Of a stretch of 64,000 nucleotides of DNA, positions 2,220 through 19,553 are shown in pieces. The first letter of the stretch is position 1. The number at the start of each line of letters is the position of its first letter. This stretch comes from Candidatus Hydrothermarchaeota archaeon (lineage in GTDB: Archaea; Hydrothermarchaeota; Hydrothermarchaeia; Hydrothermarchaeales; BMS3B), in assembly GCA_015521565.1 (NCBI GenBank), contig WANX01000002.1, forward strand, positions 7,308-71,307. The letters are read 5' to 3'. The position numbers and the translations under genes were made by a program. A model generated the notes under the pieces. The model did not search any database and was not told the origin of the DNA. It saw nothing but the letters and a program-made list of their open reading frames with translations.

Positions 2220-3149
2220 ATGGAGCTTGAAGAACTTCCCGGCGTGGGCATAGCAACCGCCGAGAAGCTGCGTGAGGCGGGATTCAAGACAGTTGAGGCA
2301 ATAGCGGTGGCTCATCCAGCGGAGCTGAAGGAGGCCGCGGGTATAGGCGAGAGCGCAGCCATGAAGATAATAAATGCAGCCCGTGAGTCCCTCCAGATGG
2401 GATTCATGACAGGAGTGGAGGTGCTGGAAAAGCGCAGAACCATGCGCAAGATAACCACTGGAAGCAAGAATCTGGACGACCTCCTTGGCGGTGGTATAGA
2501 GACCCAGGCAATTACCGAATTCTTTGGAGAATTCGGGTCAGGAAAGACCCAGGTGTGCCATCAGCTGGCTGTGAATGTTCAGCTGCCTGAGGACGATGGA
2601 GGGCTCGGAAAAACTGCCTTCTATCTGGACACCGAGAATACCTTCCGTCCGGAGAGGATTATACAGATGGCCGAGGGGATTGGCAGGGAGCCCAGGGAGG
2701 TGCTCGAAAACATCATAGTCGCCAGGGCATACAACAGTGACCACCAGATGCTGCTTATCGAGAAGGCAGAGGATATAATCAGGGAGAAGAATATAGGCCT
2801 TATAGTTGTGGATTCCCTGACCTCCCACTTCAGAAGCGACTATACCGGGAGGGGAATGCTATCCGACAGGCAGCAGAAGCTCAACCGCCACATGCACACA
2901 CTTCAGAAGCTCAGTGATATCTACAATCTGGCTGTGGTGGTTACAAATCAGGTGATGATGCGTCCCGACTTCTTTTTCGGAGACCCCACCGCACCCATAG
3001 GAGGGCATGTGGTGGGACACAGTTCGACCTTCAGGATATACCTGCGCAAGTCGAAGGCTGGCAAGCGGGTGGCGCGACTGATAGACTCTCCCAACCTCCC
3101 TGAGGGGGAGGCCATATTTACAGTAACTGCCGATGGTATAAGGGATTGA
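2220..3149 (+). CDS. radA: DNA repair and recombination protein RadA (Rad51/RecA homolog)
   Basis: N-terminal HhH ([20 protein letters not shown]), Walker A (GEFGSGKTQ) and RecA-fold core ([13 protein letters not shown]). Likely true start is MELEEL at 2220, inside the longer ORF that begins at 2166. Confidence 0.9.
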
Positions 3150-3829
3150 GGATGATAAAGGCAGTGGCCATAGACATAGATGGCACCATCACCGATGAGA
3201 GGAGGAGGCTGAACCTGAAGGCTGTGGCAATCCTGCGCGAGCTTGAGAGGCGCGGTGTTATGGTGGTTCTTGCAACTGGCAACATTCTGTGTGTTGCCGA
3301 ATCTGCTCGCACCTTTATCGGCGTGTCGGGTGGCATAATTGCAGAGAATGGCGGTATCATAAAAGACCCGGAGATGGGGATAGAGCGATACCTGGGGGAC
3401 GTGGTTGAGGTGCGAAGGGCATTTAACCATCTTGCTGCAAGGTACTGTGTAACACCCGTGCCTATGTCGGAGCTCAGAAAGACGGAGGTAGCTGTTCTGC
3501 GGCGGGGTATAACTGCAGGGGAAGTGAGAGATTGCCTCAAGAATTTCAAAGTAGAGGTGGTGGACACAAAGTTTGCAATCCACATAAAATCCCCAGAGGT
3601 CAGCAAGGGCAGAGCGCTGGAGGAGTTGATGGAACTGAAAGGAGTGGATATGCACGAGGTTGCAGCAGTAGGCGACAGCGAAAATGACAGGGATATGCTT
3701 GCAAGGTCAGGGTACGGTATAGCAGTTGGGGATGACTCACTTAAAGATGTTGCAGATATTGTTACCCCTTCCAGGTATGGTGAGGGTGCGGTAGAGGCGC
3801 TGCAGCATCTTCTGGCACGGCTTCGATAA
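3146..3829 (+). CDS. HAD-superfamily hydrolase, archaeal phosphoglycolate phosphatase-like
   Basis: Motif I DIDGT ([10 protein letters not shown]) and C-terminal [10 protein letters not shown] motif. About 227 aa, the size of archaeal PGPase. Confidence 0.7.
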
Positions 3830-3896
3830 ATTTTTAAATGATAAATTATTAAGAATAGGAAAACGTGTTCAACACGTCCTCTCGGGATGGATCGCA

Positions 3897-4409
3897 ATGG
3901 AAAAGATAGAGCCCAATTACAGGGAGGTAAGCTCTGAGCTGGTGAAGGAGATAAAGCAGGAGCCCGGAGGTGAGTACATATCACGCTGTTACCAGTGCGG
4001 CACCTGTGCAGCCACCTGTGTGGTAAACCCCTTTAAAAACGACTTCAACCCCCGGAGAATAATCCGAATGGCTGTGCTGGGTGTGGAGAATGTGCTGGAG
4101 AGCATTGAACCCTGGTACTGTGCTGTTTGCTACCTCTGCACTGAACGATGCCCCAGAGATGTAAAGCCGGCTGCTGTACTCATGGCAATAAAGAATGTTG
4201 CAGCAAAGCACGGGAAAGTTCCAGCTGCCTTCAGGACGATAAATGAAAACATCGCCAGAATTGGCCGTCTTTTTGAGATAGATGACTTTACAAACTTTAT
4301 GCGGGAGGACATGGGACTTCCCCCAATAGAACCCCTTGAGGAGGAAGAGATAAGCAGACTCATCGCCGGAACAAGATTTGAAAAGCTCATGAAAGGTGAG
4401 GAGAGCTGA
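3897..4409 (+). CDS. hdrC: Heterodisulfide reductase subunit C-like (two 4Fe-4S ferredoxin motifs)
   Basis: CxxCxxCxxxCP motifs (CYQCGTCAATC and CAVCYLCTERCP). Located immediately upstream of hdrB. Confidence 0.75.
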   Translation: MEKIEPNYREVSSELVKEIKQEPGGEYISRCYQCGTCAATCVVNPFKNDFNPRRIIRMAVLGVENVLESIEPWYCAVCYLCTERCPRDVKPAAVLMAIKNVAAKHGKVPAAFRTINENIARIGRLFEIDDFTNFMREDMGLPPIEPLEEEEISRLIAGTRFEKLMKGEES

Positions 4410-4411
4410 AA

Positions 4412-5263
4412 ATGGGCGACGATTATCTCTACTTTCCGGGTTGTAACATACCCTACAGGGAGAACCAGTATGAACTTTCCGCCAGGGCAGTTGCCGAAAA
4501 GCTGGGCATAAAACTTCATGACAGACCTTTCAACTGCTGCGGGCTGAACACTGAGCCAGTAGATGAGTACGCCGCCCTGCTGTTCTCGGCCCGCAACATA
4601 GCGATAGCAGAAGAGGAGGGCATGAACCTGGTGGCCCTGTGCAATGGCTGCTACAAGACCCTCAGGGTGGCAAACAGAAAGCTGCACATGGATGAGAGAC
4701 TGCGCGCAAAAGTGAACGAGGGTCTGAGCAGAATAGGCAGAGAGGTAAAGGGTACGATTGAGGTTTACCACATGCTTGAGCTCATTTCTGACAGGATAAC
4801 AAAAGAGCACATGGTAAAAAAGGTCCAGGCCCGTATAGCGCCCTTCACCGGTTGCCATGCTGTACGTCCAAGCGAATATGTTGACTTCGGAGCTGCTGAG
4901 CGGCTGATGAAGATGATAAAGCTTGCAGGAGGCCGGGTGGTGAGGTACAGGGACATGGACAAGTGCTGCGGTGCTCCTCTTCTCGCACTGAGTGAGGAGA
5001 TGGGAATAAGTCTTGCGCGGCAGAGGATGCTGAGTATGAAGGAGCGGAAGGCCGAGCTTGCGGTCACCATGTGCCCCTTCTGTCAGGTCTCCCTGGACGG
5101 ACTGCAGGTGAAGGCCGAGCAGGAGTTCAAAGAAAGCTACGATATCCCCAGCCTCTATATTACCCAGCTTCTGGGACTTGCTATGGGTATAAAGCCTGAG
5201 AAGCTTGGAATAAACGAAAACAAGAAGGACCCCAGCGGAGTGCTCGCCCGGGTGCTCGTGTAG
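4412..5263 (+). CDS. hdrB: Heterodisulfide reductase subunit B-like (CCG-domain protein)
   Basis: Two Cys-rich CCG domains (FPGCNIP...NCCG...; FTGCHAV...KCCGAP...CPFC). Tightly linked to hdrC with a 2-bp gap. Confidence 0.8.
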   Translation: MGDDYLYFPGCNIPYRENQYELSARAVAEKLGIKLHDRPFNCCGLNTEPVDEYAALLFSARNIAIAEEEGMNLVALCNGCYKTLRVANRKLHMDERLRAKVNEGLSRIGREVKGTIEVYHMLELISDRITKEHMVKKVQARIAPFTGCHAVRPSEYVDFGAAERLMKMIKLAGGRVVRYRDMDKCCGAPLLALSEEMGISLARQRMLSMKERKAELAVTMCPFCQVSLDGLQVKAEQEFKESYDIPSLYITQLLGLAMGIKPEKLGINENKKDPSGVLARVLV

Positions 5264-15180: not shown

Positions 15181-15336
15181 AACCCTGTCCGCCTCGAATA
15201 TCTTGTCCACAAGTGCGGAGTAGTCCTTGTTCTTGTAGAGCTCAAAAACCTCCACGTCCGCCTCCTGCTTGTGGACCTCGATTATCTCCTTAACCCTGTC
15301 ACTTGGCTCGGACCGCAGAATCTCCAGAACCTTCAT
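15166..15336 (-). CDS. Small hypothetical protein (56 aa), last gene of the DsrE-like operon and not in the six-frame track
   Basis: ATG at 15336 down to TAG at 15166. Translation: MKVLEILRSEPSDRVKEIIEVHKQEADVEVFELYKNKDYSALVDKIFEADRVISWW. Lies 12 nt downstream of the preceding gene. Confidence 0.3.
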   Translation of the reverse strand: MKVLEILRSEPSDRVKEIIEVHKQEADVEVFELYKNKDYSALVDKIFEADRVISWW

Positions 15337-15348
15337 CCAAACCACCTC

Positions 15349-15654
15349 TCAGTAGGGTATTATGATATCATACTCCAGCATCTTCTTTGCCATCTCTTCG
15401 ACACTCATCTCATCGATGTACTCGCTCTTCTCCACATTCTTCGGGTTGTTGCTCACAACCAGGCCACCGTTGTCCTTTATCCACTCCAGGTTCTCTGCCA
15501 CGTCGCCACGCTCAACGTCGTACTCCACATCGATAATCATTAAACTCGGGTCGTTGCCGCCGAGCATCGTGCCCAGGGCGGAACGGCTCGCCTCCTCCTG
15601 CACATACCCATCCTCGCTGTTGCTGATAAATACCACAGAGACCATCATCCTCAC
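15349..15654 (-). CDS. DsrE/DsrF/TusB-like small protein (sulfur-relay fold)
   Basis: 101 aa. VVFISNSEDGY start typical of the DsrE/DsrF family. Tandem with a second family member. Confidence 0.5.
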   Translation of the reverse strand: MRMMVSVVFISNSEDGYVQEEASRSALGTMLGGNDPSLMIIDVEYDVERGDVAENLEWIKDNGGLVVSNNPKNVEKSEYIDEMSVEEMAKKMLEYDIIIPY

Positions 15655-15657
15655 CTC

Positions 15658-15981
15658 CTAAAACACCACATACCTGTCAACTTCCTTCATCATGTTGGCA
15701 TTGAAGTCCTGCGTGGTTTTCTGTATTCCCTCCGGCACTTCGTACTTCTCCGCCAGGCCGAGCTCTTCAAAGCTGTGCCAGCACATGCCCACAGTTGCTC
15801 CTGCCCTGACTATCTCCTTTGCATGCTCTGTGGGTACAAGCCTAACACCCGGTCCGGTGAAGAACACCTTTACCTCGTGTCCCTTCTCTATGGCCGCCTT
15901 AACCAGGCCCTCCACATCCTCGCCGTGCTTGTCTGTGCAAACGAATACCCCAAGCTTTCCCATGGTAATCACCGATAACAA
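15658..15981 (-). CDS. DsrE/TusD-like protein
   Basis: 107 aa. MGKLGVFVCTDKHG... with a conserved Cys in the first strand, typical of DsrE/TusD. Confidence 0.55.
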   Translation of the reverse strand: MLSVITMGKLGVFVCTDKHGEDVEGLVKAAIEKGHEVKVFFTGPGVRLVPTEHAKEIVRAGATVGMCWHSFEELGLAEKYEVPEGIQKTTQDFNANMMKEVDRYVVF

Positions 15982-16168
15982 CTATGTCCCCCTTTATTTA
16001 AACTTTATTTTCATAAAAACCGAATTCAATTCCCCCGGTGCTTTCGCCTGCACAGCCATCTGAGATAATTATCGTCACCCTGGTGGATGGGCATTCAATT
16101 TCTCTGGGACAGAGCACAGAGTAAAGTATTTATATAAATTTTAATTACACATGGTGTGAGGTGGTAAC

Positions 16169-16906
16169 ATGGCTTGGCTGGCAAACTTTGTTGTAAATGT
16201 GCTACCGTATATAACCTTCATAGTTTTTGTAGTGGGGGTTATATACCGCATCGCAGTGTGGTGGAGCAGACCATCGCCTGCGCCGATACCGGTGTTCCCG
16301 GGTCAGCGAACAGTCGGCAGCGCTATATCGAGGGTGCTGGCGGACGTGATAATCTTCCGCTCCCTGTGGCAGTTCCCCGGCAACCGCATCCTCTGGCTCG
16401 GTGCGTGGGTGTTCCATGTGAGCTTCCTCCTGATACTCCTGCGCCATCTGCGCTACTTCCTGGGTGAAGAGGCTGTGCCTGGCTGGGTTGCTGCGGTGCA
16501 GAGCCTCGGTATAGCAGCGGCGCTGGTGATAAGCGTGCCCCTTCTCTACCTGCTGATACGCAGAATTGTGCACGCCGACCTGAAGTTTATTTCCACGCCG
16601 GCGGACTACTTTGTGCTTCTTCTGATTCTCAGCGTGGTGCTCTCTGGCCTGTACGCAAAATACTTCTCAACACCCTTCGTGGTTGACGTGAAGTACGTGA
16701 TGCGCAGCCTCATGGCGCTGAAACCGGTGGATTTAAGCACTGTGACGCTTAACACGGCCTTCCTGGTGCACTTCTTCCTGGTGCAGGTGCTGGTGATGTA
16801 CATACCCTTCAGCAAGGTGATGCACCTGGGCGGGATCTTCTTTTCTCCCACACGCACCCACCACTTTGGTGGTGAGGCGCACACAAAGAAGCTGGAGGAG
16901 GCCTGA
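16169..16906 (+). CDS. HdrE/DsrM/NarI-like membrane di-heme cytochrome b subunit
   Basis: Five TM helices with His pairs placed as in the NarI fold. Immediately followed by the HdrD-like gene (stop and ATG separated by 2 nt). Confidence 0.7.
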   Translation: MAWLANFVVNVLPYITFIVFVVGVIYRIAVWWSRPSPAPIPVFPGQRTVGSAISRVLADVIIFRSLWQFPGNRILWLGAWVFHVSFLLILLRHLRYFLGEEAVPGWVAAVQSLGIAAALVISVPLLYLLIRRIVHADLKFISTPADYFVLLLILSVVLSGLYAKYFSTPFVVDVKYVMRSLMALKPVDLSTVTLNTAFLVHFFLVQVLVMYIPFSKVMHLGGIFFSPTRTHHFGGEAHTKKLEEA

Positions 16907-16908
16907 AA

Positions 16909-18669
16909 ATGGGAGAGCAGCTTGAGAAAATATACGATGTGGAGCTCAGGCCCGGGGCGGGTGAGGCTTACGTCTGCAACCTCACCAAGCCGGAATTTGC
17001 AGAGGCCATGAAGACCAACATTCCAAAGGAGCCCCTCCCGGATGACCAGATGGTGGAGGTGGCTCTCAAGCGTCTGGATGAGCTCCGCAAAGAGAGAAAG
17101 AGCATCCAGCTGTATCTGGACATATGTGTGCGCTGTGGCGCCTGCATGAAGCAGTGCCATTACTTTATTGGCACCGGCGACCCGAAAAACACGCCCGTGG
17201 GCAGGGCAGAGCTTCTGCGTAAGGTTTACAGGGCGCACTTCACCATAAGCGGCAAGCTCTTCGGCAAGCTGGTGGGTGCCGAGAAGCTCACCCCGGAGAT
17301 TTTGAAGAACGAGTGGTACAAGTACTTCTACCAGTGCTCAGAGTGCAGGCGCTGCTCTGTGTTCTGCCCCTACGGCATAGACCAGGCAGAGATTACCATG
17401 GCTGGCAGGGAAGTGCTCAACAGCGTGGGCCTGGCCACGAAGTACATCACCCAGGTAATTTCGCAGGTCTACAAGCACGGCAACAACCTGGGCATACCAG
17501 AGCCGGCGTTCAAGTACAACTGCCAGTTCCTGGAGGAGGAGATAAAAGAGAGCACGGGTGTTGATGTTAAGATACCCGTGGACAAGGAGAAGGCAGAGAT
17601 ACTCTACCTGCCCCCGAGTGCAGACCTCTTCACCAACACCGACACCATGATAGGCGTCGCCAAGGTGTTCCATGCAGTAGGTGCGGACTGGACGATGAGC
17701 ACCTACGCCAGCGAGGCCGCGAACTTCGGGCTCTTCTTCAGCTACGACGACCTCAAGGCGATTAACCTGCGCGTCGTCGAGACAGCCAAGAAGCTGGGGG
17801 CCAAGCTCGTCGTGTTTGGCGAGTGCGGCCACGCGTGGCGTGCTGCCAGGCAGTTCATGGAGGCGATGAATGGACCCCTCCCGTTTAAGTTCATGAACAT
17901 CCTGGAGTACACCGCAGAACAGATACGCAAGGGCAAGCTCAAAATCGACAAATCGAGAAACGACGACGTCGTTGTAACGCTGCACGACCCCTGCAACTAC
18001 GCCAGGGCGGGGGACCTGGTGGAGGAGACTCGCTTTGTGATAAAGTCGGTGTGCAACAACTTCGTGGAGATGGACGAAAGTGTTACCAAAGTTAAAACCT
18101 TCTGCTGCGGTGGCGGCGGAGGCCTGCTCACAGAGGAGATAATGGAGCTCAGGATGAAGGGCGGCCTGCCTCGTGCAACGGCGGTTAAAGAGGTGGTTGA
18201 GGCACATGGCGTCAACTATCTTGCCGCACCCTGTGCTATAGACAAAGCCCAGCTGCCGCTGGTAATGCAGCACTACGAAATACCCGTGCAGGTTGGTGGA
18301 ATCCACGACCTGGTGAGCAAGGCACTTATTCTTGAGGGTCAGGAGGAGTTCGAGGCAAAGAAGAAGGCCGAGGAAGAGGCTGCCAGGGCCGCGGCTGCGG
18401 CTGTGCCGGCGGTCTGCGGACTCTGTGATGCGGAGTTTGCCACCATGGACGAGTGCTGTGAGCATGCGGAGAAGGACCACAAGATATCCAAAGAGCAGTG
18501 CGACATGGTATGCGAGGCCAAAGAGGGAGCAGCCGCCGAGGCTGTGCCGGCGGTCTGCGGACTCTGCGATGCGGAGTTTGCCACCATGGACGAGTGCTGC
18601 GAGCATGCGGAGAAGGACCACAAGATATCCAAAGAGCAGTGCGACATGGTGTGTGAGTCGAAAAAATGA
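16909..18669 (+). CDS. HdrD/DsrK-like iron-sulfur CCG-domain subunit carrying a tandem Cys-rich C-terminal extension
   Basis: Two ferredoxin-like clusters (CVRCGACMKQC and CSECRRCSVFCP) and two CCG domains (HDPCNYA and TFCCGGGGG). The last ~95 aa are two near-identical 47-aa Cys-rich repeats. Confidence 0.75.
   Translation: MGEQLEKIYDVELRPGAGEAYVCNLTKPEFAEAMKTNIPKEPLPDDQMVEVALKRLDELRKERKSIQLYLDICVRCGACMKQCHYFIGTGDPKNTPVGRAELLRKVYRAHFTISGKLFGKLVGAEKLTPEILKNEWYKYFYQCSECRRCSVFCPYGIDQAEITMAGREVLNSVGLATKYITQVISQVYKHGNNLGIPEPAFKYNCQFLEEEIKESTGVDVKIPVDKEKAEILYLPPSADLFTNTDTMIGVAKVFHAVGADWTMSTYASEAANFGLFFSYDDLKAINLRVVETAKKLGAKLVVFGECGHAWRAARQFMEAMNGPLPFKFMNILEYTAEQIRKGKLKIDKSRNDDVVVTLHDPCNYARAGDLVEETRFVIKSVCNNFVEMDESVTKVKTFCCGGGGGLLTEEIMELRMKGGLPRATAVKEVVEAHGVNYLAAPCAIDKAQLPLVMQHYEIPVQVGGIHDLVSKALILEGQEEFEAKKKAEEEAARAAAAAVPAVCGLCDAEFATMDECCEHAEKDHKISKEQCDMVCEAKEGAAAEAVPAVCGLCDAEFATMDECCEHAEKDHKISKEQCDMVCESKK
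18400..18666 (+). repeat. 141-bp perfect-period tandem duplication (two copies) inside the 3' end of the hdrD-like gene
   Basis: Copy 1 is 18400-18540 and copy 2 is 18541-18666. Almost all differences between them are synonymous third-position changes. Confidence 0.9.
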
Positions 18670-19022
18670 AGGAGATCTCCCAGGCAACCTGGTTCACAGA
18701 GGTAACCTGTTCGAGTACACCCGTGGCGGTCCACTTCTATGCGGAGTGGTCACCTGCGTGCAGGGAGATAGAGTGCCTCCTTGAGAAGTACGAGCAGCGC
18801 TTAGCAGGAAAGATGAAGTTCGTGAAGATAGACATCGACGCCAACGAGGCGGTGCGCATCGCCAACCGGGTGATTGTACCACCCACCCTTATAATTTACT
18901 ACAAGGGGATACCCGTAAATGGCGTACCGGGGCCGCAGCCAGAGTGGGTGTACGAGAACAGGATACTTCGTGCCATCCGGCTCTACGAAAGGAGGCTGAA
19001 AAACATCCTAAGGAGGAGGTAA
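18666..19022 (+). CDS. Thioredoxin-fold protein with a degenerate active site (WSPAC)
   Basis: 118 aa. VAVHFYAEWSPACREI mirrors the thioredoxin WCGPC region but with a single Cys. Start codon overlaps the hdrD-like stop (ATGA). Confidence 0.5.
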   Translation: MKEISQATWFTEVTCSSTPVAVHFYAEWSPACREIECLLEKYEQRLAGKMKFVKIDIDANEAVRIANRVIVPPTLIIYYKGIPVNGVPGPQPEWVYENRILRAIRLYERRLKNILRRR

Positions 19023-19025
19023 ACC

Positions 19026-19553
19026 ATGAAGAGGTTGTTGATATTCATTGCGGCGCTGAGCCTAATGGTGCTCAGCGGATGTGTGGCTCCGCCTGAGAAG
19101 CCGGTTAAGGATTCCACGCTCAAGGAGCACCCCTCGCCAAAGGTGGACATGACCTACTGGAAAGCAAACCACGGCAAAGAGATTGAGGCTGGTAAGGCGA
19201 GCGAGGAGTCGTGCATTAACTGCCACCAGCCTGAGAACTTCTGCAACAAGTGCCACGCCTATGTGGGCGTGAGGCAGATAGAGGTCGGCACACCGCCACC
19301 GCCGGCGGCTGCAGAGGCTCCGAAGGAGGAGAAACCCGCGGAGACACAGCCTGAGGCGGAGGCCAAACCGGTGCTGCACGGCGAGGGCAGATGCGACCAG
19401 TGTCATGACGCCCCCACCCTGGAGGACATGCGCACAGGCTTGCACAAGCAGGCCTTTGAGAAGTTTGAGGGGCACAAGAACTTCTGCAGCGAGTGCCACA
19501 ACGTCCAGGAGACCTGCACCAAGTGCCACGCCCTGCCGGCGATAATGCAGTAG
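19026..19553 (+). CDS. Lipoprotein pentaheme c-type cytochrome
   Basis: Signal peptide with lipobox (LMVLSGC). Five CxxCH motifs: CINCH, CNKCH, CDQCH, CSECH, CTKCH. Pro/Ala/Glu-rich linker. Confidence 0.8.
   Translation: MKRLLIFIAALSLMVLSGCVAPPEKPVKDSTLKEHPSPKVDMTYWKANHGKEIEAGKASEESCINCHQPENFCNKCHAYVGVRQIEVGTPPPPAAAEAPKEEKPAETQPEAEAKPVLHGEGRCDQCHDAPTLEDMRTGLHKQAFEKFEGHKNFCSECHNVQETCTKCHALPAIMQ

What the first reader, a model, noticed from the sequence alone, without database searches (positions are those of the whole stretch)
18400..18666. Near-perfect 141-bp tandem duplication adds two Cys-rich 47-aa modules to the HdrD/DsrK-like subunit
The C-terminus of the CCG-domain subunit ends in two head-to-tail copies of AVPAVCGLCDAEFATMDECCEHAEKDHKISKEQCDMVCE (six Cys per copy). 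The copies differ at only a handful of positions, almost all synonymous (tgt/tgc, gta/gtg, gag/gag), plus one Ala-to-Ser change. That pattern suggests a recent duplication that is kept under purifying selection, or concerted evolution. It is not a degenerating slip. Canonical HdrD/DsrK end after the second CCG domain. A duplicated CxxC...CC...C...C tail could bind an extra metal or cluster, or serve as a thiol/disulfide relay toward the adjacent thioredoxin-like protein.
Basis: seen in the sequence. Interest (0 to 1): 0.6.

Follow-up and report, generated by a model that had tools for sequence, protein, structure and literature searches.

The report
Zinc-finger repeats on sulfite-respiration enzyme DsrK
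The tandem repeat is real: it puts two zinc-finger-like beads on a flexible tail of DsrK, the catalytic subunit of the archaeal sulfite-respiration membrane complex, and the two copies are kept alike by gene conversion, but what the beads bind is still inferred.

Summary
The 586-aa ORF at 16909-18669 is DsrK. It ends in two 39-codon modules (18400-18516 and 18541-18657) that differ at 4 nucleotides, all synonymous.

Each module fits the classical C2H2 zinc-finger pattern (C-x2-C-x3-F-x5-C-x2-H-x4-H). It is modelled with confidence as a beta-beta-alpha finger plus an extra helix and strand. Its best structural match is the archaeal-virus finger AFV1p06.

The module is not private to this genome. 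In Hydrothermarchaeota-type contigs it sits at the C-terminus of DsrK (0-3 copies) or of the membrane subunit DsrP (1-2 copies), sometimes both in one operon. No other host protein was found.

Copies within a genome are far more alike than orthologues between genomes. A strain 98.9% identical to the window shows three substitutions present in both copies at once. That is concerted evolution with purifying selection, not an assembly artefact.

Function is inferred. The most likely role is a tethered, acidic docking domain on the cytoplasmic face of the Dsr complex. A thiol or sulfur relay, or a second metal site, is not excluded. The neighbouring thioredoxin-like gene is not specific to the tail.

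The parts
16909..18669 (+). dsrK ORF, 586 aa plus stop: catalytic body, spacer and two zinc-finger-like modules
   Evidence: ORF list. NCBIfam DsrK equivalog 539 bits, above the 400 cutoff, covering aa 41-489. Pfam Fer4_8/Fer4_17 at aa 70-158. Motifs ECGH at aa 305, HDPC at 359, FCCGGGGG at 398, PCAID at 441. AF2 model mean pLDDT 87, with best PDB fold matches EtfD, LutA and HdrB.
18340..18399 (+). Glu/Lys/Ala-rich spacer (aa 478-497, QEEFEAKKKAEEEAARAAAA) between the DsrK body and module 1
   Evidence: Predicted as a single long helix, H478-497, in the whole-protein AF2 model. It lies at or beyond the end of the NCBIfam DsrK profile. Other lineages have Pro/Glu/Ala-rich linkers of similar length here.
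18400..18516 (+). Module 1 (aa 498-536): C2H2-type zinc-finger-fold domain. Proposed Zn ligands C503, C506, H519, H524. Extra Cys at C516, C517, C531, C535.
18517..18540 (+). Inter-module linker AKEGAAAE (aa 537-544)
   Evidence: Low model confidence here (pLDDT below 50 at aa 541-543). A homologous junction, 'KEGA...', is present in all close two-copy orthologues.
18541..18657 (+). Module 2 (aa 545-583): second copy. Proposed Zn ligands C550, C553, H566, H571. Extra Cys at C563, C564, C578, C582.
   Evidence: Peptide identical to module 1, with 4 synonymous nucleotide differences. Same predicted fold in the whole-protein model.
16169..16906 (+). dsrM (245 aa), the haem-b membrane partner of DsrK
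   Evidence: Pfam Nitrate_red_gam at 2e-14. NCBIfam DsrM is the best hit at 145 bits, below the equivalog cutoff of 300. Conserved upstream of dsrK in L001-L006 and L020.
18666..19022 (+). Thioredoxin-fold protein (118 aa) with a WSPAC (S-x-x-C) site. It overlaps the dsrK stop codon by 4 nt.
   Evidence: Pfam Thioredoxin at 5e-15. Translation. Conserved after dsrK in tailed orthologues and in the tail-less one, L015/L016.
19026..19553 (+). Lipoprotein c-type cytochrome (175 aa, five CxxCH motifs), weakly DsrJ-like
   Evidence: Translation. Weak NCBIfam DsrJ hit at 3e-4. Its N-terminal half is homologous to the 102-aa two-haem lipoprotein next to the tail-less DsrK.
15349..15981 (-). Two small DsrE/DsrF-like sulfur-relay genes (15658-15981 and 15349-15654), divergent from dsrM
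   Evidence: Pfam DsrE at 1.4e-6 for 15658-15981. The translations resemble the small ORFs upstream of dsrM in L015. The + strand ORFs listed for this stretch are shadows of these genes.

Best explanation
The repeat encodes two copies of a roughly 39-residue C2H2-type zinc-finger-fold domain: beta-hairpin, helix, second short helix and third strand. The proposed Zn ligands are C503/C506/H519/H524 in copy 1 and C550/C553/H566/H571 in copy 2.

The two domains hang like beads behind a 20-residue helical spacer at the C-terminus of DsrK. DsrK is the cytoplasmic catalytic subunit of the DsrMK(JOP) complex, which reduces the DsrC-bound trisulfide.

The domain is a lineage-specific accessory of this complex in Hydrothermarchaeota-type archaea. 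It is attached to DsrK (0-3 copies) or to the cytoplasmic C-terminus of the membrane subunit DsrP (1-2 copies), and to nothing else found.

The array arose by tandem duplication. It is kept homogeneous by gene conversion, both between tandem copies and between the dsrK and dsrP tails. It gains and loses copies by unequal exchange. Both copies are under strong purifying selection.

Inferred mechanism: the acidic finger (net charge about -7) has a nearly invariant exposed helix, D-E-C-C-E-H-A-E-K-E-H. I propose it is a tethered docking or capture domain that holds a soluble partner next to the DsrK active site. Candidate partners are DsrC or a sulfur-relay protein such as the DsrE-like or TusA proteins encoded nearby. 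Copy number would tune avidity.

Shown: the repeat, its fold class, its distribution, and its concerted evolution and selection. Inferred: Zn binding, cytoplasmic docking and the partner.
For: Identity of the host:
- DsrK equivalog above cutoff, with the profile ending at aa 489.

Fold of the module:
- The motif C-x2-C-x3-F-x5-C-x2-H-x4-H can be read directly from the sequence.
- A profile of 17 modules hits classical fingers in PDB: ZBTB20 at 1.9e-5, Zif268 at 8.8e-5, ADR1 at 1e-3. It also hits eukaryotic poly-zinc-finger proteins and small prokaryotic two-finger proteins among 1.84 billion representatives.
- AF2 gives pLDDT 91 with strands at 4-6 and around 11-12, helix 16-27, helix 31-36 and strand 38-40.

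Tether:
- Helix 478-497, and a low-confidence linker between the beads.

Distribution:
- Every module-bearing ORF with a readable N-terminus is DsrK or NrfD-family DsrP.
- Both subunits carry it in L008, L013, L026, L035 and L036.
- DsrP has 10 predicted TM helices. Its most positively charged loop is on the same side as both termini, so its C-terminus is cytoplasmic. This fits the NrfD review (PMC8076601).

Concerted evolution:
- Synonymous difference (pS) between copies within a genome is 0.19 (window), 0.09 (L003) and 0.05 (L005). Between genomes, the DsrK body gives pS 0.40-0.67, although all share the same duplication junction.
- For 22 of 42 copies the nearest DNA neighbour is a paralogue in the same locus.
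- Window against L017 (98.9% identical over 8.1 kb): at 18429, 18465 and 18489 both copies carry T,T,C in one strain and C,C,A in the other. Expected parallel sites are 0.004, giving P of about 1e-8.
- In L013 the last 180 nt of dsrP and dsrK are identical.
- Three-copy proteins carry lineage-specific residues in every copy.

Selection:
- 4 synonymous and 0 non-synonymous differences in the window.
- Pooled over five genomes, 21 synonymous and 6 non-synonymous.

Docking role:
- Net charge -7.1 and pI 4.4 argue against nucleic-acid binding.
- Exposed helix residues D17, E18, E21, E24 and K25 are near-invariant across hosts that are only about 50% identical or unrelated.
- Tolerance of 0-3 copies and of two attachment points fits a proximity or avidity function.
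- DsrC binds DsrK mainly through electrostatic and hydrophobic contacts (preprint 10.64898/2026.08.25.746951).
Against: - No metal content, binding partner or expression data exist for this domain.
- Pfam's own C2H2 models score below their gathering thresholds (E 0.005-0.06).
- The canonical core Leu is replaced by an invariant Cys (C516).
- Three more Cys are conserved or co-vary and have no role in a plain structural finger: C535 is invariant, and C517/C531 are always present or absent together. This is what a redox or second-metal function would predict.
- The tools returned no model coordinates, so I could not measure whether these Cys cluster.
- Docking to DsrC is a guess. The DsrC sequences from related loci have pI 5.9-8.5, which is not strikingly basic. 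No dsrC was found in this window.
- The gene-conversion signal comes from short-read metagenome assemblies. Read mis-assignment between near-identical copies could in principle exaggerate homogeneity.
Confidence: 0.55

Rival explanations
1. Redox-active thiol or sulfur-relay domain. The non-ligand Cys (C516/C535 and the pair C517/C531) would cycle between thiol, disulfide and persulfide or trisulfide states. They would pass sulfur or reducing equivalents to or from the DsrK active site, as a built-in DsrC-like arm, possibly on a Zn-finger scaffold.
For: - C516 and C535 are invariant in all true family members.
- C517 and C531 co-vary perfectly: both Cys in 49 peptides, both non-Cys in 19, and in those 19 a new Cys appears at position 37 next to C38. 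Paired gain and loss is the usual signature of a disulfide or a functional Cys pair.
- The last Cys lies 1-5 residues from the C-terminus in terminal modules, reminiscent of the DsrC arm.
- DsrK chemistry involves a protein trisulfide and a persulfidated relay Cys (preprint).
- The locus encodes DsrE-like proteins, and in the orthologue TusA and DsrE2.
Against: - Copy number 0-3 and attachment to either DsrK or DsrP are unusual for an obligatory catalytic relay.
- The closest orthologue clade works with no tail at all (P0007-P0009).
- Internal modules of an array are not at a free C-terminus.
- C516 occupies the buried core position of classical fingers (the Leu at helix position +4). It may simply pack against C535.
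- The adjacent thioredoxin-like protein is not tail-specific and lacks CxxC.
Confidence: 0.2
2. Extra redox metal centre. The four Cys not used by the C2H2 site (C516, C517, C531, C535), or all six Cys, bind a second metal or a small Fe-S or rubredoxin-like centre. This would extend the electron path of DsrK.
For: - There are six Cys and two His in 33 residues.
- A 'CC' doublet also ligates the non-cubane cluster of CCG domains (general knowledge of the HdrB/DsrK family; preprint).
- Invariant D35 and E24 could supply additional ligands.
Against: - One whole lineage keeps only three of these Cys (C19, C37, C38 in module numbering).
- The domain sits on a flexible tether tens of angstroms long. 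It is optional (0-3 copies) and can sit on DsrP. None of this suits a fixed electron wire.
- The fold and profile matches are to structural Zn fingers, not to ferredoxins or rubredoxins. Rubredoxin matches in Foldseek have probability of about 0.06 or less.
Confidence: 0.1
3. Functionless recent slippage, or an assembly or fusion artefact. The second copy would be a neutral accident, or the tail an unrelated ORF joined by error.
For: - Tandem duplicates of 141 nt can arise by replication slippage.
- All data come from short-read metagenome assemblies.
- L002 (96% identical) has one copy where its nearest relatives have two.
Against: - An artefactual duplicate would be identical, not 4 synonymous changes apart.
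- The longest identical run between the copies in the window is about 50 nt, shorter than the usual final k-mers.
- Two-copy forms with the same junction occur in independent MAGs and metagenomes: L001, L003, L004/L018, L005/L019, L017.
- Differences between copies within a genome, pooled over five genomes, are 21 synonymous and 6 non-synonymous.
- The tail is in frame in every contig, and no stand-alone gene version was found. The short hits are contig-end fragments of dsrP or dsrK.
Confidence: 0.03
4. Nucleic-acid-binding regulatory finger. The fingers would bind DNA or RNA, for example for autoregulation or mRNA tethering at the membrane, as AFV1p06 and eukaryotic C2H2 fingers do.
For: The fold class and its nearest structural neighbour, AFV1p06, bind DNA (PMC3541406).
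Against: - The module has net charge about -7 and the whole tail about -15.
- The 'recognition' positions of the helix are Asp and Glu.
- The domain is covalently tied to membrane-complex subunits.
Confidence: 0.03

Closest known systems
AFV1p06 (PDB 2LVH) and related crenarchaeal-virus C2H2-like fingers
   Different: Sequence identity is only 17-18%. AFV1p06 lacks the second His (a Glu is the ligand), is a free 59-aa DNA-binding protein, and has no extra Cys. The Dsr module has both His and 3-4 extra conserved Cys, is strongly acidic, and is fused to respiratory-complex subunits in tandem arrays.
Classical C2H2 (TFIIIA/Zif268/ADR1-type) zinc fingers
   Same: The ligand spacing is C-x2-C-x12-H-x4-H, with the conserved Phe four residues after the second Cys. 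The H-x4-H variant is as in ADR1. There are profile-level hits and tandem beads on linkers.
   Different: The core Leu is replaced by an invariant Cys. There is no TGEKP-type linker. The helix is acidic rather than basic. The Pfam models are not reached at their thresholds. The context is prokaryotic, non-nuclear and membrane-enzyme.
Canonical DsrK (e.g. Archaeoglobus fulgidus DsrMKJOP, cryo-EM preprint 10.64898/2026.08.25.746951) and HdrD/HdrB
   Same: The body has two ferredoxin-type clusters and a CCG domain with ECGH, HDPC, CCG and CAI(D/C) motifs. It is an equivalog-level match and is adjacent to dsrM. The fold resembles HdrB, EtfD and LutA.
   Different: The canonical proteins end after the CCG domain (the profile is 453 positions). 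The preprint text does not contain the word zinc and does not describe a C-terminal finger. Here 97 extra residues follow.
Small prokaryotic two-finger C2H2 proteins (61-73 aa; e.g. P0180, P0203, P0225)
   Same: They are prokaryotic C-x2-C-x12-H-x3-5-H fingers with the conserved Phe, in tandem pairs. The module profile retrieves them at E of about 1e-5 to 1e-6.
   Different: They lack the second helix, the third strand and the extra Cys. They match only module positions 2 to about 30 and are free-standing.
DsrC C-terminal arm (functional analogy only)
   Same: It has two conserved Cys near a C-terminus that interact with DsrK chemistry.
   Different: There is no sequence or fold similarity. 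DsrC has C-x10-C on a flexible arm of a roughly 110-aa globular protein. The module's Cys sit inside a compact finger.

Membership tests
DsrK (DsrMKJOP subunit K) | Scores above the curated equivalog cutoff of NCBIfam NF045796 | tested here: met
   539.1 bits against a cutoff of 400, aa 41-489 on profile positions 21-451 of 453.
DsrK (DsrMKJOP subunit K) | Two ferredoxin-type [4Fe-4S] motifs, one CCG-type non-cubane cluster motif, and the conserved non-ligating Cys with nearby His | tested here: met
   CVRCGAC at aa 73 and CSECRRCSVFCP at aa 143. ECGH at 305-308, HDPC at 359, FCCGGGGG at 398, PCAID at 441. C306 is invariant and H308 is at least 90% conserved in a 42-sequence alignment. Equating these with A. 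fulgidus C329/H331/D500 is by motif only.
DsrK (DsrMKJOP subunit K) | Encoded next to dsrM (NarI-like dihaem membrane subunit) | tested here: met
   dsrM lies at 16169-16906, immediately upstream. The order is conserved in orthologous loci.
DsrK (DsrMKJOP subunit K) | Reduces DsrC-trisulfide | not testable with these tools
   This needs a biochemical assay. No dsrC, dsrAB or dsrOP was found within this 64-kb window, although related contigs carry dsrC.
Classical C2H2 zinc finger (beta-beta-alpha) | Ligand spacing C-x2-4-C-x12-H-x3-5-H | tested here: met
   C503-x2-C506-x12-H519-x4-H524, and the same in copy 2. All four residues are invariant in every true family member.
Classical C2H2 zinc finger (beta-beta-alpha) | Conserved hydrophobic core: an aromatic residue four positions after the second Cys, and a Leu three positions before the first His | tested here: inconclusive
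   The Phe (F510) is invariant. The Leu position is an invariant Cys (C516) instead.
Classical C2H2 zinc finger (beta-beta-alpha) | Beta-hairpin plus alpha-helix fold | tested here: met
   This rests on a predicted structure only. pLDDT is 91, with a hairpin at 4-12 and a helix at 16-27. The top PDB matches are all C2H2 fingers.
Classical C2H2 zinc finger (beta-beta-alpha) | Reaches the gathering threshold of a Pfam zf-C2H2 model | tested here: not met
   zf-C2H2_4 scores 14.5-16.3 bits and zf-C2H2_2 scores 17.6 bits, against cutoffs of about 27. A family-specific profile does hit solved C2H2 fingers at 2e-5 to 1e-3.
Classical C2H2 zinc finger (beta-beta-alpha) | Binds one Zn(II) per domain | not testable with these tools
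   Needs ICP-MS or spectroscopy on expressed protein.
CCG domain (PF02754) as the origin of the tail | C-x31-39-CCG-x35-36-C-x2-C pattern or a Pfam CCG hit in the tail | tested here: not met
   No CCG hit in the tail at E up to 10. The spacing C-x2-C-x9-CC-x13-C-x3-C does not fit.
Tandem array under concerted evolution | Paralogous copies within a genome are more alike than orthologous copies between genomes, although the duplication is shared | tested here: met
   pS within a genome is 0.05-0.19, against 0.40-0.67 for the gene body between genomes. The junction is shared. Three substitutions are present in both copies between the window and L017.

The most novel reading that the evidence does not exclude
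The module may be more than a passive docking finger. It could be a new tethered sulfur-carrier or redox domain: a zinc-finger scaffold whose extra, co-varying cysteine pairs (C516/C535 and C517/C531) carry persulfide or trisulfide sulfur, or bind a second metal. Hydrothermarchaeota would then have a built-in, copy-number-tunable substrate or relay arm on the Dsr complex, on DsrK or DsrP, that partly replaces or assists free DsrC.
Probability: 0.2. Interest if true: 0.75.

Novelty: new variant of a known kind. Interest (0 to 1): 0.55.

Why it matters
DsrMK(JOP) is the terminal, energy-conserving step of dissimilatory sulfite and sulfate reduction, and its first structures are only now appearing. 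An accessory domain has been recruited repeatedly to two different subunits of this complex. It is conserved in its exposed residues and kept in 1-3 homogenised copies. That points to an unrecognised interaction at the cytoplasmic face of the complex in a deep-branching archaeal lineage, either capture of a partner or substrate or an extra thiol or metal site.

It is also a clean natural example of a prokaryotic C2H2-type finger used outside nucleic-acid binding. Gene conversion acts here on a very short (about 120-nt) coding repeat, and even between two genes of one operon. The hypothesis is directly testable with a 109-residue recombinant tail.

Tried and rejected
- Tandem Repeats Finder at minimum score 30 did not report the repeat. 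The repeat finder and a codon table did.
- A word-indexed protein search with the 51-aa module found nothing. With the 114-aa tail it found only four contig-end fragments. The exhaustive profile search and a metagenome DNA-pattern scan were needed to find the family.
- Short 'free-standing' hits (P0121, P0123, P0125, P0126) turned out to be C-terminal fragments of DsrP or DsrK cut by contig ends or by gene calling. There is no good evidence for a stand-alone gene. P0143 (37 aa) remains unresolved.
- The 102-aa ORF after the tail-less DsrK was tested as a possible split-off module. It is a two-haem lipoprotein cytochrome.
- phmmer of the whole DsrK against PDB sequences gave no hit at 1e-3. Fold search was needed.
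- The afdb50 fold library was unavailable.
- Rfam found no RNA family in the oddly well-conserved stretch 15270-16060. The conservation is explained by DsrE/F-like genes on the minus strand.
- Literature searches for DsrK or DsrMKJOP with 'zinc' or 'zinc finger' returned nothing relevant.
- I could not obtain model coordinates, so Cys-Cys and Cys-Zn geometry in the AF2 model was not measured.
- The DsrC charge comparison (pI 5.9-8.5) did not discriminate between hypotheses.
Full report
**1. The observation**

The ORF at 16909-18669 (+) encodes 586 residues. Its last 89 residues contain two head-to-tail copies of AVPAVCGLCDAEFATMDECCEHAEKDHKISKEQCDMVCE, with a period of 141 nt.
- The repeat finder reports 135 nt at 93% identity, spacing 141. 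Tandem Repeats Finder missed it because there are fewer than two full units.
- Codon by codon, the 39-codon cores (18400-18516 and 18541-18657) differ at four positions. All four are synonymous third-base transitions, and three of them are in Cys codons.
- The first amino-acid difference is A537/S584.
- With 21.3 synonymous and 95.7 non-synonymous sites, four of four synonymous has a chance of about 0.001.

The description is accurate. What it omits is that each copy also has two His.

**2. The host protein and its locus**

The protein is DsrK. NCBIfam equivalog NF045796 gives 539 bits against a cutoff of 400, and the 453-position profile ends at residue 489. The ferredoxin motifs, ECGH, HDPC, FCCGGGGG and PCAID are present. 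The AF2 model (pLDDT 87) resembles EtfD, LutA and HdrB.

The neighbouring genes are:
- dsrM immediately upstream.
- A thioredoxin-fold protein with WSPAC, and a five-haem lipoprotein cytochrome, downstream.
- Two DsrE/F-like genes divergent on the minus strand.

No dsrC, dsrP or dsrAB lies in the window.

Orthologous contigs are labelled Candidatus Hydrothermarchaeota or Pyrohabitans. One metagenome contig, L017, is 98.9% identical over 8.1 kb. Hydrothermarchaeota are known carriers of archaeal-type Dsr systems (PMC10504309).

**3. What the module is**

The sequence reads C-x2-C-x3-F-x5-C-x2-H-x4-H. This is the classical C2H2 spacing, with the conserved Phe.
- Pfam C2H2 models give only sub-threshold hits.
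- A profile of 17 modules hits solved C2H2 fingers: ZBTB20 at 1.9e-5, Zif268 at 8.8e-5, ADR1 at 1e-3.
- Among 1.84 billion representative proteins the same profile hits eukaryotic poly-finger proteins and small prokaryotic two-finger proteins.
- AF2 models the module at pLDDT 91 as a beta-hairpin, helix 16-27, helix 31-36 and strand 38-40.
- In the whole-protein model the modules follow a 20-residue helix (478-497) and are separated by a low-confidence linker. They are beads on a tether.

**4. Conservation inside the module**

Across the family, C6, C9, F13, C19, H22, H27 and C38 (module numbering) are invariant. In the window these are C503, C506, F510, C516, H519, H524 and C535. L8, A11, D17, E18, A23, E24, K25, I29, K31 and D35 are nearly invariant.

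C20 and C34 (C517 and C531) co-vary perfectly. Both are Cys in 49 distinct peptides. Both are replaced, mostly by Ala, in 19, and there a Cys appears at position 37.

So beyond the four C2H2 ligands there are two invariant Cys and one co-varying Cys pair whose role is open. The module has net charge about -7 and pI 4.4.

**5. Distribution**

- Among close orthologues the copy number is 2 (L001, L003, L004/L018, L005/L019, L017, P0002, P0005), 1 (L002, L006/L021/L022, P0003, P0004, P0006/L020) or 0 (P0007-P0009).
- Two further DsrK lineages, about 50-57% identical, carry 1, 2 or 3 copies. P0271 and P0287 have three.
- The exhaustive profile search and a metagenome scan also found the module at the C-terminus of NrfD-family proteins that sit in dsrOP or dsrJOP contexts, that is DsrP, in 1 or 2 copies.
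- In L008, L013, L026, L035 and L036 both dsrP and dsrK of one operon carry it.
- Every module-bearing ORF whose N-terminus is readable is DsrK or DsrP. The apparent small free proteins are contig-end fragments.
- DsrP has ten predicted TM helices, with the most basic loop on the side of both termini, so its tail is cytoplasmic like DsrK. This agrees with the topology described for 10-helix NrfD proteins (PMC8076601).

An accessory domain that can be attached to either of two subunits of the same complex is acting on the complex as a whole, from the cytoplasmic side.

**6. How the repeat evolves**

- The close two-copy orthologues share the same junction (…CE-x-KEGA…A-[AV]P-x-VC…). This indicates one ancestral duplication.
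- Yet synonymous differences between the two copies within a genome are 0.19 (window), 0.09 (L003) and 0.05 (L005). For the DsrK body between the same genomes they are 0.40-0.67.
- Substitutions specific to a lineage appear in all copies of that lineage.
- For 22 of 42 copies the nearest DNA relative is a paralogue in the same locus.
- The sharpest evidence is the window against L017. At 18429, 18465 and 18489 both copies read T,T,C in the window and C,C,A in L017. The 3' end of the unit (18510 onward) keeps copy-specific bases shared by both strains. Parallel independent hits are expected at 0.004 sites, giving P of about 1e-8.
- In L013 the last 180 nt of dsrP and dsrK are identical. The related contig L012 breaks exactly at the end of that repeat, as expected for a true repeat.
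- Single-copy genomes nest among two-copy ones, so copies are also lost.
- Pooled over five genomes, the differences between the two copies within a genome are 21 synonymous and 6 non-synonymous.

This is concerted evolution by gene conversion, with copy-number turnover and purifying selection on every copy.

It is not an assembly artefact. The copies differ, identical runs are shorter than typical final k-mers, and independent assemblies agree. The caveat is that all data are short-read metagenome assemblies.

**7. Mechanism**

The fold class, tethering, host restriction, conservation pattern, charge and evolutionary mode are shown. Zn binding, and what the finger binds, are inferred.

I favour a tethered docking or capture domain, for these reasons:
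- The solvent-facing 'recognition' helix (DECCEHAEKEH) is almost invariant across hosts that are otherwise about 50% identical or unrelated.
- The domain is acidic, which argues against nucleic acids.
- It works from two attachment points.
- It tolerates 0-3 copies, which suits avidity rather than fixed stoichiometric chemistry.

DsrC binds DsrK through electrostatic and hydrophobic contacts (preprint 10.64898/2026.08.25.746951). DsrE-like, TusA and DsrC genes lie in or near these loci, so candidate partners exist.

The main rival is a redox or sulfur-relay function of the extra Cys, and the co-varying pair C517/C531 speaks for it. A second metal site comes next. I could not measure Cys geometry because model coordinates are not returned.

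That gene accompanies the tail-less orthologue too, and has S-x-x-C rather than C-x-x-C.

**8. Comparison with what is known, and novelty**

Canonical DsrK, including the A. fulgidus enzyme whose cryo-EM study never uses the word zinc and describes no C-terminal finger, ends after the CCG domain. Pfam and NCBIfam have no model for the tail. Text searches for DsrK or DsrMKJOP with zinc fingers found nothing relevant.

The domain is a new variant of a known fold, the C2H2 finger of the AFV1p06-like extended type. It sits in a new architectural context, as C-terminal arrays on DsrK and DsrP. I rate it as a new variant of a known kind, with interest 0.55.

Noticed in passing
window 15271-16063 (+ strand ORFs) versus 15349-15654 and 15658-15981 (- strand): The three + strand ORFs listed here are shadows. 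The real genes are two small DsrE/DsrF-like sulfur-relay genes on the minus strand, divergent from dsrM. The tail-less orthologue (L015) has similar small genes on the same strand as dsrMK, plus three TusA genes and DsrE2.
   Followed up: partly
window 18666-19022: The thioredoxin-fold protein beside dsrK has the active site WSPAC (S-x-x-C), so the first Cys of CxxC is missing. The orthologue next to the tail-less DsrK has WSPSC, so the monothiol site is conserved. Its start overlaps the dsrK stop codon by 4 nt.
   Followed up: partly
window 19026-19553: The lipoprotein cytochrome c has five CxxCH motifs. It looks like an internally extended version of the 102-aa, two-haem lipoprotein found next to the tail-less DsrK. 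The motif pair C-x2-CH-x5-C-x2-CH occurs at both ends, separated by a Pro/Ala/Glu-rich linker. L004 and L005 match only its first 69 or so residues.
   Followed up: partly
L013 711-2078 (dsrP) and 3020-4810 (dsrK); L012 contig end: The last 180 nt of dsrP and dsrK in one operon, covering linker, module and stop, are 100% identical, with an abrupt boundary. A related contig, L012, ends exactly after the repeat.
   Followed up: yes
P0271, P0287: Within single 90%-identity clusters, DsrK proteins occur with 1, 2 and 3 modules (531, 574-576 and 620 aa). All three copies of P0271 share the lineage-specific residue 'FSSF'.
   Followed up: partly
window aa 441-445 of DsrK (PCAID) versus P0010-type DsrK (PCAIC): The last position of the CCG-domain C-x-x-[C/D] motif is Asp in the window's lineage and Cys in the two other module-bearing DsrK lineages and in most bacterial homologues in the alignment. 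This is probably the Asp500 / 'supernumerary Cys' position discussed for A. fulgidus DsrK.
   Followed up: no
window 3897-4409 and 4412-5263: A separate HdrC-like (Fer4 dicluster) and HdrB-like (two CCG domains) gene pair lies 12 kb upstream of dsrMK, followed by a response-regulator/HTH gene.
   Followed up: no
L009 1-90 (contig JAADFS010000314.1, binned as Deferribacteres): A module 87% identical to the window's sits at the very end of a 3.6-kb contig assigned to a bacterial bin. No thioredoxin-like, cytochrome or dsrM homologue follows it. It may be mis-binned or a different context.
   Followed up: partly
P0143 (37 aa): The sequence MPQCIVCGEEFEEMDECCKHAEKEHKIVRAACDECCE could be a genuine stand-alone module or a fragment. 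Its context was not retrieved.
   Followed up: no
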